18,895 nucleotides of DNA from a phage: sequence record PZ049716.1. One strand, written 5' to 3'. The translations under genes were made by a program, and so were the position numbers. Of the stretch, positions 15,504 through 17,656 are shown piece by piece; the stretch's first letter is position 1; each line of letters begins with the position of its first letter. The notes below the pieces were generated by a model that saw only the letters and a program-made list of their open reading frames with translations, searched no databases and had not been told where the DNA came from.

Positions 15504-15529
15504 TCTCGCTGGCTGGCGAGGGCATTACG

Positions 15530-15561
15530 GCAGGAAATAAAGCCCGGCGTGAGGCCGGGCT
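15530..15561 (-). terminator. Intrinsic terminator ending the accessory cassette
   Basis: Minus-strand 8-bp GC stem (AGCCCGGC / GCCGGGCT, loop 5 nt) followed by TTATTT. Confidence 0.6.
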
Positions 15562-15569
15562 AGGGAGGG

Positions 15570-15887
15570 TCAGCGCACGCGCAGGGCGTGGTCGGCGGGG
15601 TAGTCCAGCAGGGCCAGGGTGTTGTGCAGGGCTTGATCGGCCAGCTCCTGCACTTTGTAGGCCTGCTGTTCCAGGTCGCCGGCCAGCACGTCCACCAGTT
15701 GGCACAGGTCGCTGCGCGACACATGGTCGAGCATGGCCGGGGTTTCGTCGCCTTCGGCATCCACCGGCAGCGGCACGGCCAGCAGTTGTTTCAGGGCGCT
15801 CAGGGCGCCCATGCGTTCGGCCAGGCGGCGCGCTGCAAAAGCGTTGATGGCCGCCACCTGGTCGGGGCGCAGCTCATGCAGGCTCAT
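15570..15887 (-). CDS. Acidic hypothetical protein (105 aa), no recognisable family; candidate accessory / anti-defence effector
   Basis: ORF track; ATG overlaps the stop of the Bro-N gene (ATGA at 15884-15887); about 16 Asp/Glu against 8 Lys/Arg; followed by a terminator. Confidence 0.5.
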   Translation of the reverse strand: MSLHELRPDQVAAINAFAARRLAERMGALSALKQLLAVPLPVDAEGDETPAMLDHVSRSDLCQLVDVLAGDLEQQAYKVQELADQALHNTLALLDYPADHALRVR

Positions 15888-16597
15888 TGCTCACCATCCT
15901 TGCTGCTCAGCGGCAGCAGGGCGACGGCGGCGGCCTGTTGCAGGTGCCGGCCAATGCGGTCGAGCTGGTCGGCCAGCGGCTGGTTGTGCGCCGAGTTGCA
16001 GAAGCGCTGGGCCAGGCGCTGCTGCTGCTCGATCAGCCGCGCCTGCTCGTTCTCCAGGTGCTTGGCCGCCACGGCGGCCAGCAGCTCGGGGCTGCACTGT
16101 GGGCTGCCGGCGGCGGGGCTGAACTGGTACTTGGCGTGCAGCAGCAGGTTGACCGTGGGTTTGGACAACCCCAGCTGGCGGGCGATATTGGCCTGGCTCC
16201 AGCCGCCCACGAACAACTCCAGCACCCGCCGTTCTATTTCGCGAGTGACCAGCACGCGGCCGCTGGGCGCTTTCGGTGGAGCCATAAGGGCATCGAGGAT
16301 GTCCAGCACCCACTTGCGGAACTCGGCTGCCACCGGCGTGCGGGCGAACATGCCCAGCAGGTGGGCGCCGCGCAGGGAGAATATACGGGTTTGTTGAATA
16401 CCGCCGGCAGTCTGCAGATCGACTAAGGCGGTCATGCCGTCGGTGAACTCCGCAGCATTCTTTTCGTACAGCTTCCAGATAGCGTGATCCGGCCGTGCAT
16501 ACCCCAAGGCACCTCCGATCTGGAGGCCCCTTAGCCAATGCTGGCCATTGCGGTCGATAACGTCGAACTGGGTATCGCGGAAGGTGAGCGCTTTCAT
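15884..16597 (-). CDS. Bro-N domain protein with central helix-turn-helix and C-terminal coiled coil (237 aa); putative regulator / antirepressor
   Basis: ORF track; GGAG Shine-Dalgarno 7 nt before ATG 16597; N-terminus TFRDTQFDVIDRNGQHWLRGLQIGGALGY...EF...GGIQQTRIFSLRGAHLLGMF...AAEFRKWV matches Bro-N; GWSQANIARQLGLSKPTVNLLLH is HTH-like. Confidence 0.6.
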   Translation of the reverse strand: MKALTFRDTQFDVIDRNGQHWLRGLQIGGALGYARPDHAIWKLYEKNAAEFTDGMTALVDLQTAGGIQQTRIFSLRGAHLLGMFARTPVAAEFRKWVLDILDALMAPPKAPSGRVLVTREIERRVLELFVGGWSQANIARQLGLSKPTVNLLLHAKYQFSPAAGSPQCSPELLAAVAAKHLENEQARLIEQQQRLAQRFCNSAHNQPLADQLDRIGRHLQQAAAVALLPLSSKDGEQ

Positions 16598-16605
16598 GGT
16601 GGGAC

Positions 16606-16680
16606 TCCGTAAGGTTCAGTCAATGCCTGATGGATTAGTAGCCCATCAGGTGGTCGGGACTCAACTAGGGCCTTACGGAC
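16606..16680 (-). promoter_or_regulatory. Nested inverted repeats and promoter-like elements immediately upstream of the Bro-N gene
   Basis: Outer inverted repeat ccgtaagg (16607-16614) / ccttacgg (16671-16678); inner perfect palindrome cctgatgg-9 nt-ccatcagg (16626-16650); minus-strand -35 TTGAGT (16659-16664) and -10 TACTAA (16635-16640) with 18-nt spacer; the 3' arm of the outer repeat abuts the Shine-Dalgarno sequence. Confidence 0.45.
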
Positions 16681-16730
16681 CCCTGGCGCTTCTTCCCCCG
16701 AAGGGTGTTGTATCCGCGCTCTCATCCCGA

Positions 16731-16762
16731 CCATAAAAGCAAACGCCAGCCCGAGGGCTGGC
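16731..16762 (-). terminator. Intrinsic terminator inside the G / Bro-N intergenic region
   Basis: Minus-strand GCCAGCCC-TC-GGGCTGGC stem followed by GTTTGCTTTTAT. Confidence 0.5.
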
Positions 16763-16812
16763 GGCAGGCGGCGTGGTCAGTGCCGTGGCTGCCGTAAGGT
16801 TTAGTGCCTAAA

Positions 16813-16841
16813 ACACTAGCCCAGCGTTACCACCTTGGCAA
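16813..16841 (-). promoter_or_regulatory. Sigma-70-like promoter candidate on the minus strand
   Basis: -35 TTGCCA (16836-16841), 17-nt spacer, -10 TAGTGT (16813-16818); lies ~50-70 nt upstream of the terminator at 16731-16762. Confidence 0.3.
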
Positions 16842-16860
16842 CAGCTTTTCCATTTAAGGC

Positions 16861-16960
16861 GTCGCCGAAACGGCGACACCCGGCGCGGATGCCGCCAAAG
16901 GGGTGGTCAAAATGGCGACCCCTTTTGATGACACTACATTCGTCGCCGTTTTGGCGACGA
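16861..16960. promoter_or_regulatory. Array of operator-like palindromes with GGCGAC arms
   Basis: gtcgccg-aaa-cggcgac (16861-16877), half-site ggtcaaaatggcgacc (16905-16920), tcgtcgcc-gtttt-ggcgacga (16940-16960); centre-to-centre spacing ~40 bp. Confidence 0.45.
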
Positions 16961-17167
16961 AACCCCCAAGAAGGAAGCTCGTATTTTCGCCGGTTTTCCC
17001 GGTTTTCCCAGGCTCTGGCCCAAAACTCACTCCAGGCCTGATGCAGAGCCGTGTTTATAAACGCCCAAACAGCCCCGGAAAGGGCCAGAGGCACCCGGAT
17101 ACATACAACGGCAGCCCCCTGGGGGCCTTAAAACGCTTCTACGGGCCTTTGCGGCGGTTTGCGGTTT

Positions 17168-17656
17168 TCAGCCCTGCAAACGGGCCTGCAGGTGATCGCG
17201 GGCGATGGCGATGATCTCCGCTGCGTCATCATCGGAGATACCGAGGAACGGCCGCGCCGGAATGTCGCCCCAGGGGATGGGCGCGCCGCGACGGGTTTTG
17301 CCGAAGGCGCCCTTGAGCGCGCCGAACTGATGCACCGCACCGTATACCCGATCGGTGCCCACCAGCAGGGTGGCGCCTTCGACCTGCGGGAAGATCTGCC
17401 GCACAAGATCGCCACGCCGCTGCAGGATCTTGCCAGGGTTCGGCGACTTGGTTTCCAGGTAGCGCGGGCTGAGTGACTTCCAGGTCTGGCCATCCGGCCC
17501 GCGTTGCGCGCTGAAGCGGTCGCGGGTGCTGTTGACCAGCGCCTCGCCGATGTCCAGCAGCATCGGCCTTGGGTCAGTCAGCTCGGCCAAGGCGCCGCGA
17601 ATAGCCGACAACACGGCGGCGTTGTCGAACTCCAGCTCTACCCGTGCGCCGCTCAC
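17168..17656 (-). CDS. Virion morphogenesis protein, Mu G-like (162 aa)
   Basis: ORF track (GTG start overlapping the upstream stop); LLDIGEALVNSTRDRFSAQRGPDGQTWKSLSPRYLETK...VGTDRVYGAVHQFG matches the Mu gpG signature. Confidence 0.7.
   Translation of the reverse strand: MSGARVELEFDNAAVLSAIRGALAELTDPRPMLLDIGEALVNSTRDRFSAQRGPDGQTWKSLSPRYLETKSPNPGKILQRRGDLVRQIFPQVEGATLLVGTDRVYGAVHQFGALKGAFGKTRRGAPIPWGDIPARPFLGISDDDAAEIIAIARDHLQARLQG

What the first reader, a model, noticed from the sequence alone, without database searches (positions are those of the whole stretch)
16731..16841. Promoter-like element followed ~70 nt later by a strong intrinsic terminator: possible small RNA or attenuator
A minus-strand -35 TTGCCA / -10 TAGTGT pair at 16813-16841 would start transcription near 16806. 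The transcript would reach a GC-rich hairpin plus U-tract at 16762-16731 after ~70 nt, before the Bro-N gene. Alternatively the hairpin simply terminates read-through from the G-like gene ~400 nt upstream. The 400 bp between the G-like stop and this terminator has only implausible ORFs.
Basis: inference. Interest (0 to 1): 0.5.

Follow-up and report, generated by a model that had tools for sequence, protein, structure and literature searches.

The report
Antisense-RNA switch guarding a prophage antirepressor
The flagged promoter and terminator are real-looking but are only the front end of a P1-c4-type antisense-RNA switch (decoy leader, structured small RNA, masked ribosome site) that controls an antirepressor-like gene carried as a mobile cassette in a Mu-like Pseudomonas-group prophage; a known kind of phage control, here in a divergent and unannotated form.

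Summary
The promoter-like pair (TTGCCA 16841-16836, 17 nt, TAGTGT 16818-16813) and the GC hairpin plus T-tract (16763-16733) are present as described. The promoter motif alone is no better than chance, so comparison carries the case. It matches Rfam sRNA-Xcc1 over its full length (50.6 bits, E 4.7e-8, just under the cut-off of 53). Its hairpin loop UCCGUAAGG is complementary to CCUUACGG in the 70-nt leader and to CCUUACGGA over the Shine-Dalgarno of the Bro-N/HTH gene (ATG 16597). All three sites change together in three alleles among relatives. In about 100 related prophage loci the same layout recurs: a promoter 11-15 nt before the upstream site, a terminator-like hairpin before the RNA, a downstream site 7-12 nt before a start codon, and mostly antirepressor-type genes. 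This is the phage P1 immI layout (a1b1, c4, a2b2, icd/ant) and resembles Gifsy-1 IsrK. The unit 16848-15540 also occurs in a different phage context, so the hairpin does not belong to gene G. Verdict: a divergent new member of a known kind. Transcripts and the direction of control are inferred.

The parts
15540..16848 (-). The whole mobile cassette (moron): promoter, leader, antisense RNA, Bro-N/HTH gene, 105-aa ORF and terminator.
   Evidence: L266, which sits between a DUF6631 gene and a tape-measure gene, matches window 16848..15540 at 81% identity and nothing outside it. L083, a Mu-like relative, lacks window 17122..15507.
16813..16841 (-). Sigma-70-type promoter: -35 TTGCCA (16841-16836), 17-nt spacer, -10 TAGTGT (16818-16813). 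The start site is inferred at about 16806/16805.
   Evidence: This is the best promoter-like site in the 75 nt before the upstream target site, and its -10 ends 13 nt before that site. In 63 of 88 family loci the distance is 11-15 nt. The hexamers are kept while the spacer varies among relatives: TTGCCA or TTGCCT, and TAGTGT or TAGGGT. The cassette boundary lies 7 nt upstream of the -35. The motif alone is at chance level.
16792..16805 (-). Upstream decoy target site. b1 is CCUUACGG (16799-16792); a weak a1-like ACUAAA precedes it (16805-16800).
   Evidence: It is the direct-repeat partner of the site at the ribosome-binding site (D5) and is complementary to the RNA loop. It changes together with b' and b2 in three alleles. 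The predicted duplex with the RNA is -18.5 kcal/mol.
16763..16793 (-). Leader hairpin 1: outer stem GGCAG/CUGCC and an inner 4-5 bp stem. Its base overlaps the last two G of b1.
   Evidence: It appears in the minimum-free-energy fold. Three inner pairs show changes on both sides across six distinct relatives, and 97% of cells are paired against 23-57% when the partners are slid.
16733..16763 (-). Intrinsic-terminator-like hairpin (16763-16744) plus U-tract UUUGCUUUUAU (16743-16733). It abuts the 5' end of the antisense RNA.
   Evidence: Found by the terminator scan. The stem is invariant in relatives, so there is no covariation for or against it. Terminator-like hairpins in this position are family-wide and one is also present in P1 between b1 and c4.
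16649..16733 (-). c4-type / sRNA-Xcc1-type antisense RNA. The closing stem is 16733-16725 paired with 16659-16651, followed by a CC tail. P2 has a UUCG loop with core AUACAACACCCUUCGGGGGAA (16713-16693). The P3 loop b' is UCCGUAAGG (16679-16671). The linker a' is AGUUGAG (16666-16660).
   Evidence: Rfam RF02221 matches 16732-16644 over model positions 1-87 of 87, at 50.6 bits (cut-off 53) and E 4.7e-8. Relatives with the same core score 63-85 bits. An orthologous gene in L273 is preceded by a 63.8-bit member.
16626..16650 (-). Spacer hairpin CCUGAUGG...CCAUCAGG between the RNA and the target site.
   Evidence: It appears in the fold of the 570-nt gap. L266 has a different sequence that is still self-complementary (CCAGACGG...CGUCUGG).
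16605..16622 (-). Downstream target. a2 is GACUGAAC (16621-16614); b2 is CCUUACGGA (16614-16606), overlapping the Shine-Dalgarno GGAG (16608-16605). The ATG is at 16597.
   Evidence: Inverted repeat I14 pairs it with the RNA loop. The predicted duplex is -25.6 kcal/mol and extends toward the start codon. It co-varies with b' and b1. In the family the downstream site ends 7-12 nt before the start codon.
15884..16597 (-). Regulated gene: a 237-aa protein with a Bro-N domain and a C-terminal HTH (sigma-70 region 4 / LuxR-like); antirepressor-like.
   Evidence: Pfam Bro-N at 1.4e-10 and Sigma70_r4_2 at 3.2e-6. PHROG 5060 'anti-repressor Ant' at 6.9e-39.
15570..15887 (-). 105-aa ORF whose start overlaps the bro stop by 4 nt; no family match.
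   Evidence: ORF list and family scans. It is kept after the bro gene in the relatives.
15541..15561 (-). Terminator at the end of the cassette: AGCCCGGCC-UCA-CGCCGGGCU followed by UUAUUU.
   Evidence: Found by the terminator scan. The cassette homology with L266 ends at 15540.

Best explanation
The flagged element is the front end of a self-contained cassette (16848-15540) that controls an antirepressor-like gene through a cis-encoded antisense RNA, in the manner of the phage P1 immI region. The steps below are inferred unless marked otherwise.

1. A weak sigma-70 promoter starts transcription near 16806.
2. The first nucleotides of the transcript carry a copy (b1) of the sequence that also covers the ribosome-binding site of the gene.
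3. A structured leader ends in an intrinsic terminator. Many transcripts stop there as a ~70-nt RNA, and the rest read through.
4. Read-through produces an ~85-nt tRNA-like RNA (acceptor-like stem plus a CC tail). It is probably released by RNase P, as P1 c4 is.
5. The hairpin loop and 3' linker of that RNA pair with the a2/b2 site over the Shine-Dalgarno of the Bro-N/HTH gene. This blocks translation and keeps the antirepressor off in the lysogen.
6. The short leader RNA carries the same target sequence and can titrate the antisense RNA. The ratio of terminated to read-through transcripts would then set how tightly the gene is shut, comparable to IsrK in Gifsy-1.

Shown here are the sequences, the structure match, the complementarity and its covariation, the family-wide layout and the cassette boundaries.
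For: - **RNA identity:** The RNA at 16732-16644 matches sRNA-Xcc1 over its full length at E 4.7e-8.
- **Complementarity in the window:** The loop is complementary to sites at 16799-16792 and at 16614-16606, the latter over the Shine-Dalgarno. Predicted duplexes are -25.6 and -18.5 kcal/mol, against about -10 for non-cognate alleles.
- **Covariation:** Three alleles change all three sites in concert. These are CCUUACGG/CCGUAAGG, CCAAACGG/CCGUUUGG and CCUGUAGG/CCUACAGG.
- **Family-wide target sites:** Across 105 non-identical loci, a 7-mer complement of the loop or linker occurs upstream in 86% and downstream in 83%. The same 7-mer occurs on both sides in 66%. With RNAs of unrelated loci the figures are 8.5%, 8.4% and 0.1%.
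- **Position at the start codon:** The downstream site ends 7-12 nt before a start codon.
- **Regulated genes:** 44 of 64 downstream proteins carry Bro-N, KilA-N, Rha, ORF6N, P22_AR_N or AntA domains.
- **Promoter:** The -10 ends 11-15 nt before the upstream site in 63 of 88 loci, and 13 nt in the window. 51% of these sites score at least 9 of 12, against 8.5% of controls.
- **Terminator:** A terminator-like hairpin lies before the RNA in 72 of 105 loci against 69 of 453 control windows.
- **Leader structure:** Hairpin 1 shows compensatory changes.
- **Cassette:** Its boundaries run exactly from promoter to terminator.
- **P1 comparison:** The P1 record annotates the same order, P1c4, a1, b1, c4, a2, b2, icd, ant. 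P1 also has a hairpin plus U-run between b1 and c4.
- **Published support:** Weinberg et al. describe the a1b1/a2b2 logic (PMC2864571 supplement). The IsrK paper shows a terminated short RNA acting on its own read-through mRNA to control an antirepressor (PMC4825925). sRNA-Xcc1 is a proven 88-nt RNA in Xanthomonas (PMC2996969).
Against: - There are no expression data, so the start site, the 3' end and any processing are all inferred.
- The promoter has only 3 of 6 matches in the -10 and is at chance level on its own.
- The terminator stem never varies among relatives, so covariation neither supports nor refutes it. Its U-tract is interrupted by GC.
- The RNA scores just below Rfam's cut-off (50.6 against 53).
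- The C4, c4-a1b1 and isrK models do not match the window.
- The a-site pairing is weak here, with one G.G mismatch, so this variant relies mainly on the b site.
- The direction of control by the leader (decoy, no role, or promotion of termination) cannot be read from sequence.
- L263 and L264 carry mismatched alleles. These may be natural escape recombinants or assembly chimeras.
Confidence: 0.75

Rival explanations
1. This is the P1-like constitutive precursor model. The hairpin is not a working terminator but only part of the 5' leader of the antisense-RNA precursor. One transcript runs from the promoter through the RNA into the bro gene, and the upstream b1 copy has little or no function.
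For: No promoter-like site lies between the T-tract and the RNA, so the RNA must come from read-through. The U-tract is interrupted (UUUGCUUUU). The Rfam C4 consensus also begins uuuuAuGG, so a U-rich 5' flank may serve processing. The role of a1/b1 in P1 is only hypothesised.
Against: An 8-bp stem with 7 G-C pairs followed by 7 U in 9 nt is a good intrinsic-terminator signature. Hairpin plus U6-7 in this position is strongly enriched across the family. b1 co-varies with b' and b2 in three alleles, which implies selection on b1. For IsrK both the terminated and the read-through forms were shown.
Confidence: 0.15
2. This is the P4 CI/seqA-like feedback attenuator model. The antisense RNA binds b1 on the nascent leader and thereby increases termination at the hairpin. 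The leader would then be a sensor that shuts off read-through, not a decoy.
For: b1 overlaps the base of hairpin 1 (16793-16792), so pairing would remodel the leader. In mainstream family members and in P1, b1 is followed by GCGG-N3-4-CCGC-N11-14-GCGG-U6-7, which allows alternative anti-terminator or terminator pairing. The IsrK authors raise this possibility by analogy with P4 CI.
Against: In the window variant hairpin 1 and the terminator are compatible, and inspection of the leader sequence shows no alternative anti-terminator pairing. In the IsrK study, constitutive expression of the downstream RNA did not reduce the IsrK effect.
Confidence: 0.08
3. The hairpin simply terminates read-through from the G-like gene or the upstream late operon, and the promoter-like motif is a chance match.
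For: The promoter motif alone is at chance level. The hairpin is the first strong terminator downstream of G.
Against: The hairpin lies within a cassette that starts 7 nt upstream of the -35 and recurs behind unrelated genes (L266). Relatives without the cassette lack the hairpin (L083). The promoter position matches the family mode. The hairpin lies between co-varying sites of one RNA system.
Confidence: 0.02

Closest known systems
Phage P1/P7 immI region: c4 antisense RNA with a1/b1 and a2/b2 sites controlling icd-ant (Rfam C4 RF01695 and c4-a1b1 RF03163)
   Same: - The order is the same: promoter, upstream target copy, hairpin plus U-run, ~80-nt RNA, downstream target over a ribosome-binding site, antirepressor gene.
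- The RNA topology is the same: closing stem, a tetraloop hairpin, a second hairpin whose loop and following linker carry the antisense sequences, and an ACC-type 3' tail.
   Different: - The C4 and c4-a1b1 models do not match the window.
- P2 carries the AUACAA/GGGGAA internal loop typical of sRNA-Xcc1.
- There is no icd-like upstream ORF, so the target is the ribosome-binding site of the Bro-N gene itself.
- The a-site pairing is weak.
- The leader has a different fold, and the terminator abuts the RNA.
- No C1-type operator is evident.
- The host phage is Mu-like, and the unit is a cassette between G and I.
sRNA-Xcc1 (Rfam RF02221), an 88-nt RNA of Xanthomonas campestris
   Same: The match covers the full model, including the invariant core AUACAAnACCC-loop-GGGGAA. 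Relatives found with that core score 63-85 bits.
   Different: - The score is 50.6, below the cut-off of 53.
- The papers found describe sRNA-Xcc1 as an integron-borne trans-acting sRNA with predicted host targets.
- The only two papers found that mention it together with c4 list both in annotation, and the passages read do not connect them.
- Here, and in about 100 prophage loci, its targets are its own flanks, upstream of antirepressor-type genes.
Gifsy-1 IsrK / STnc1160 / orf45-anrP (Salmonella)
   Same: In both, a promoter drives a short RNA that ends at an intrinsic terminator. Read-through gives an mRNA for an antirepressor whose ribosome-binding site is masked. A stable processed RNA downstream is complementary to the short RNA.
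   Different: - The isrK model does not match the window.
- IsrK works through orf45 and translational coupling.
- IsrK function is shown experimentally, whereas nothing has been tested here.
Satellite phage P4 CI RNA with seqA and seqC
   Same: A processed antisense RNA is flanked upstream and downstream by complementary sites on the same transcript (as summarised).
   Different: CI acts by causing premature transcription termination, not by masking a ribosome-binding site. Homology was not tested here.

Membership tests
sRNA-Xcc1 (Rfam RF02221) | Covariance-model score at or above the curated gathering score of 53 bits | tested here: not met
   The score is 50.6 bits, E 4.7e-8, over model positions 1-87 of 87. 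The gathering-threshold search returns nothing. The identical RNA in L269 also scores 50.6 bits.
sRNA-Xcc1 (Rfam RF02221) | Consensus architecture: a 9-bp closing stem, P2 with the AUACAAnACCC / GGGGAA internal loop and a tetraloop, a P3 hairpin, a single-stranded linker and a CaCC tail | tested here: met
   The alignment to the model shows every element present. The core pattern is identical to that of more than 100 viral-contig members.
sRNA-Xcc1 (Rfam RF02221) | Expressed as a discrete RNA of about 88 nt | not testable with these tools
   This has been shown only for the Xanthomonas member, by Northern blot and end mapping (PMC2996969).
c4-type antisense control (P1 immI) | Antisense segments of the RNA are complementary to a site overlapping the ribosome-binding site of the downstream gene (a2/b2) | tested here: met
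   b' at 16679-16671 pairs with b2 at 16614-16606, which covers GGAG, with a predicted duplex of -25.6 kcal/mol. The sites co-vary in three alleles.
c4-type antisense control (P1 immI) | A second copy of the target lies upstream of the RNA on the same strand (a1/b1) | tested here: met
   b1 is at 16799-16792 (D5) and co-varies with the other sites. The same 7-mer occurs on both sides in 66% of family loci against 0.1% in the permutation control. The a1 part is weak in the window.
c4-type antisense control (P1 immI) | The regulated gene is an antirepressor | tested here: inconclusive
   The protein has a Bro-N domain and matches PHROG 'anti-repressor Ant'. 44 of 64 family neighbours carry antirepressor-type domains. 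Antirepressor activity itself has not been tested.
c4-type antisense control (P1 immI) | Sequence and structure membership in Rfam C4 (RF01695) or c4-a1b1 (RF03163) | tested here: not met
   Neither model matches window 16550-17200 at E up to 10. Both match P1 itself.
c4-type antisense control (P1 immI) | The RNA is cut from the precursor by RNase P | not testable with these tools
   Only the tRNA-like acceptor stem with an ACC tail and a U at position -1 can be seen. The P1 precedent is Hartmann et al. 1995, seen only as a reference entry.
IsrK-type short leader RNA (Rfam RF01394) | Match to the isrK covariance model | tested here: not met
   There is no isrK match in the window or in six related loci. 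P1's a1b1-plus-terminator region does match it, at 35 bits.
IsrK-type short leader RNA (Rfam RF01394) | A promoter-proximal short RNA ends at an intrinsic terminator, with read-through into the antirepressor mRNA | tested here: inconclusive
   The promoter and terminator signals and their family-wide positions fit this. No transcript data are available.

The most novel reading that the evidence does not exclude
The sRNA-Xcc1 family as a whole would be a third, unrecognised branch of the c4/CI class of phage immunity RNAs. It would come with its own conserved partner: a promoter-proximal, terminator-ended leader RNA that carries decoy target sites and matched no Rfam family in the loci tested. 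In this reading the leader acts as a dedicated sponge, or anti-antisense RNA. Its ratio to the antisense RNA sets the threshold for antirepressor expression. The co-varying b1/b'/b2 alleles would be immunity specificities that diversify by recombination, with L263 and L264 as natural escape recombinants.
Probability: 0.4. Interest if true: 0.55.

Novelty: new member of a known kind. Interest (0 to 1): 0.4.

Why it matters
**For this prophage.** The analysis identifies how an antirepressor-like gene, inserted as a cassette between the G and I genes of a Mu-like prophage, is probably kept silent. It also gives precise bases to mutate.

**Beyond this window.** The comparison suggests that sRNA-Xcc1 family members found in prophages target their own flanks, whereas the papers found describe sRNA-Xcc1 as a trans-acting virulence-linked sRNA with predicted host targets. 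These RNAs sit upstream of antirepressor-type genes. One E. coli-type member occurs in 563 of 5426 complete E. coli genomes, and there only the antirepressor gene, not the RNA, is listed among the annotated features under the match.

**What it opens up.** The short terminated leader carrying decoy sites appears to be a conserved partner that matched no Rfam family in the window or in six related loci. This offers a tractable system for testing what a1/b1-type sites do, a question left open since the P1 work.

Tried and rejected
- **Standard RNA searches:** The Rfam gathering-threshold search and the tRNA search of the whole window found nothing.
- **Known phages:** A blastn search of the gap against 50,697 phage records found no match.
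- **Weak Rfam matches to the leader:** Esr41 (24 bits against a cut-off of 102), rnk_pseudo and isrG reflect only a generic hairpin plus U-tract and were rejected.
- **Genome scan:** Two of these (L004, L079) did carry the RNA upstream of the gene.
- **Metagenome and viral scans for the window's own RNA variant:** These returned only other variants, so no extra close relatives came from them.
- **Consensus folding of the family:** RNAalifold on a MAFFT alignment of 58 family RNAs recovered only the invariant 3-bp P2 tip, because the alignment was not structural. I did not build my own covariance model and relied on Rfam's.
- **First terminator scanner:** An initial scanner limited to loops of 3-8 nt undercounted the family terminators (18 of 105). 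It was replaced by a fold-based one.
- **Operator hypothesis for the palindromes:** I first considered the GTCGCC...GGCGAC palindromes at 16860-16959 as operators. They lie in a 128-bp insertion that most relatives lack, so I rejected that idea.
- **A separate promoter for the antisense RNA:** I looked for a TAnnnT -10 that could place a start at the RNA's 5' end and found none.
- **An anti-terminator fold in the window's leader:** Inspection of the leader sequence and its predicted fold showed none.

Full report
**Setting**

The window is the late region of a Mu-like prophage read on the minus strand. It encodes an F-like protein (18863-18174) and a G-like virion morphogenesis protein (17656-17168; Phage_tail_S, 1.5e-32). 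Further downstream are the I protease/scaffold (15500-14349) and the T major head protein (13923-13030). Between G and I lie a 570-nt gap without credible ORFs, a 237-aa Bro-N plus HTH protein (16597-15884; PHROG 'anti-repressor Ant', 6.9e-39), a 105-aa ORF and a terminator at 15561-15541. Full-length relatives of the Bro-N/HTH protein come from Pseudomonas sihuiensis, Ectopseudomonas oleovorans and E. chengduensis. The host therefore probably belongs to that group.

**The observation**

The sequence is as described:
- -35 TTGCCA at 16841-16836, a 17-nt spacer, and -10 TAGTGT at 16818-16813.
- Hairpin CGCCAGCC-CUCG-GGCUGGCG at 16763-16744.
- T-tract TTTGCTTTTAT at 16743-16733.

The hairpin is the second-best terminator-like site in the window. 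The promoter matches only 8 of 12 positions. Sites of that quality occur once in the window against 1.5 +/- 1.1 in shuffles. On its own it is therefore no evidence.

An E-value search of Rfam over the gap finds a full-length match to sRNA-Xcc1 (RF02221) at 16732-16644. The score is 50.6 bits, just under the gathering score of 53, with E 4.7e-8. The match begins right after the T-tract.

The RNA has these parts:
- A 9-bp closing stem (16733-16725 with 16659-16651).
- A hairpin with a UUCG loop and the invariant core AUACAAnACCC...GGGGAA.
- A second hairpin whose loop reads UCCGUAAGG (16679-16671).
- A single-stranded linker.
- An ACC-type tail.

The loop is exactly complementary to CCUUACGG in the flagged 70-nt leader (16799-16792). 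It is also complementary to CCUUACGGA at 16614-16606, which covers the Shine-Dalgarno GGAG; the ATG is at 16597 (D5, I14). Predicted duplexes are -25.6 kcal/mol with the ribosome-binding site and -18.5 kcal/mol with the leader.

**Covariation in close relatives**

I recovered relatives through the G protein, a DNA pattern and the Bro-N/HTH protein. Three alleles change all three sites together:

| Allele (b1 and b2 / b') | Loci |
|---|---|
| CCUUACGG / CCGUAAGG | window, L137, L266, L268, L269, L271 |
| CCAAACGG / CCGUUUGG | L081, L270 |
| CCUGUAGG / CCUACAGG | L272 |

 The window's RNA gives only about -10 kcal/mol against the two other alleles' ribosome-binding sites. The reverse combinations discriminate less well: L081's RNA scores no worse on the window's sites than on its own.

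The stem between b1 and the terminator (hairpin 1, 16793-16763) has three pairs with changes on both sides. In it, 97% of cells are paired, against 23-57% when partners are slid. The terminator stem never varies, which says nothing either way. An orthologous gene at 51% identity (L273) is preceded by an sRNA-Xcc1 that scores 63.8 bits, above the cut-off.

**The family**

The core pattern finds at least 120 viral contigs. Sampled members score 63-85 bits. Counts below come from about 105 non-identical loci.

| Feature | Observed | Control |
|---|---|---|
| 7-mer complement of loop or linker within 130 nt upstream | 86% | 8.5% (RNA of an unrelated locus) |
| 7-mer complement within 90 nt downstream | 83% | 8.4% |
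| Same 7-mer on both sides | 66% | 0.1% |
| Best sigma-70 site scoring at least 9 of 12 | 51% | 8.5% |
| Terminator-like hairpin plus T-run within 130 nt before the RNA | 72 of 105 | 69 of 453 windows |

 Further points:
- The downstream site ends 7-12 nt before a start codon.
- The best sigma-70 site before the upstream target ends 11-15 nt from it in 63 of 88 loci.
- Of 64 non-redundant downstream proteins, 44 carry Bro-N, KilA-N, Rha, ORF6N, P22_AR_N or AntA domains.
- One enterobacterial member occurs in 563 of 5426 complete E. coli genomes, upstream of genes annotated as antirepressors. The RNA itself is not listed among the annotated features under the match.

**Cassette boundaries**

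L266 sits in a different phage context, between a DUF6631 gene and a tape-measure gene. It shares window 16848..15540 and nothing else. That span runs from 7 nt upstream of the -35 to the end of the terminator at 15561-15541. L083, a Mu-like relative, goes from G to I without the unit.

The promoter, leader hairpin, RNA and gene therefore move together as one transcription unit. The hairpin does not belong to gene G. From general knowledge of Mu, G ends the lys operon and I starts a new late operon, so this boundary would tolerate an insertion. That last point is an inference.

**Comparison with known systems**

*Phage P1.* The P1 record annotates promoter P1c4, a1, b1, c4 (77 nt), a2, b2 (ending 10 nt before icd), icd and ant. 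This is the same order as in the window. P1 also has a hairpin plus U-run between b1 and c4. In P1 the Rfam models C4 and c4-a1b1 match, and isrK matches the a1b1-plus-terminator stretch at 35 bits. None of these three models matches the window or the related loci tested.

*Published accounts.* Weinberg et al. describe the a', b', a1b1 and a2b2 logic and the idea that a1/b1 compete with a2/b2 (PMC2864571 supplement). For Gifsy-1 IsrK, a terminated short RNA and its own read-through mRNA were shown experimentally, with the short form activating antirepressor translation. A processed downstream RNA, STnc1160, is complementary to IsrK (PMC4825925). sRNA-Xcc1 itself is an experimentally mapped 88-nt RNA (PMC2996969). 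The only two papers found that mention sRNA-Xcc1 together with c4 list both in annotation, and the passages read do not connect them.

**Mechanism**

The most likely sequence of events is as follows:
1. The promoter fires near 16806.
2. The leader carries the b1 decoy site and ends in a leaky intrinsic terminator, giving a ~70-nt RNA.
3. Read-through yields the tRNA-like antisense RNA, probably cut out by RNase P as in P1.
4. Its loop and linker mask the ribosome-binding site of the Bro-N/HTH gene.
5. The short leader can titrate the antisense RNA.

Shown here are the sequence features, the structure match, the covariation, the family statistics and the cassette limits. Transcription, termination efficiency, processing and the sign of the leader's effect are inferred.

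Three rival readings remain. In the first, the leader is an inert precursor as in the simple P1 model. In the second, the antisense RNA promotes termination on the leader, as P4 CI does. In the third, the hairpin is merely the terminator of gene G. The cassette data argue strongly against the third.

**Verdict**

The element is the leader of a c4-type antisense switch. It is a divergent new member of a known kind, with a modest family-level insight: sRNA-Xcc1 behaves as a c4-like regulator of antirepressor genes and has a conserved leader that matched no Rfam family in the loci tested.

Noticed in passing
window 16856-16983: A 128-bp insertion rich in GTCGCC-N-GGCGAC palindromes lies 15 bp upstream of the -35 and folds to -60 kcal/mol. 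It is identical in L263 and L264 and absent from L081, L137 and L268-L272. A 27-nt piece of it recurs in reverse orientation inside the bro-like genes of L137, L269 and L271. It could be a REP- or MITE-like element.
   Followed up: partly
L263:1229-1490 and L264:607-868: These two loci carry mismatched specificity alleles. In L263, b1 and b2 are CCAAACGG but the RNA loop is CCGUAAGG. In L264, only b2 is switched. The predicted duplex with the ribosome-binding site drops to -9.9 kcal/mol. They may be natural recombinants that escape antisense control, or metagenome assembly chimeras.
   Followed up: partly
L200, L151, L142 and many other loci; L275:470-520 (phage P1): In mainstream family leaders and in P1, b1 is followed by GCGG-N3-4-CCGC-N11-14-GCGG-U6-7. 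The CCGC can pair with either GCGG, which suggests an anti-terminator/terminator switch. The window's variant lacks this arrangement.
   Followed up: no
L275:431-512 (phage P1, NC_005856 48230-48311): The Rfam isrK model matches the a1-b1-terminator stretch of P1 at 35 bits (E 5e-6, below its cut-off). This suggests that IsrK-type RNAs are the a1b1 leaders of c4 loci. The two families are not in one Rfam clan.
   Followed up: no
window 16984-17123: The segment between the G stop and the insertion is about 95% conserved in Mu-like relatives, more than the flanking genes. It contains a 9-bp long-range inverted repeat (17090-17082 with 17021-17013) and a GC hairpin just after the G stop. No function was assigned, and the 570-nt gap as a whole folds with z = -4.9.
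   Followed up: no
window 15570-15887: A 105-aa ORF overlaps the bro stop codon by 4 nt. It is kept in the close cassette relatives but has no Pfam or PHROG match.
   Followed up: no
L265:1141-1504: One relative of the Bro-N/HTH gene (83% protein identity) lacks the RNA leader altogether. It is instead preceded by two small overlapping ORFs. The gene can therefore exist without the antisense module.
   Followed up: no
E. coli RefSeq genomes (hits H1-H8): An sRNA-Xcc1-type locus (L142 type) is present in 563 of 5426 complete E. coli genomes, next to genes annotated 'phage antirepressor Ant' or 'AntA/AntB'. No RNA feature is listed under the match.
   Followed up: partly
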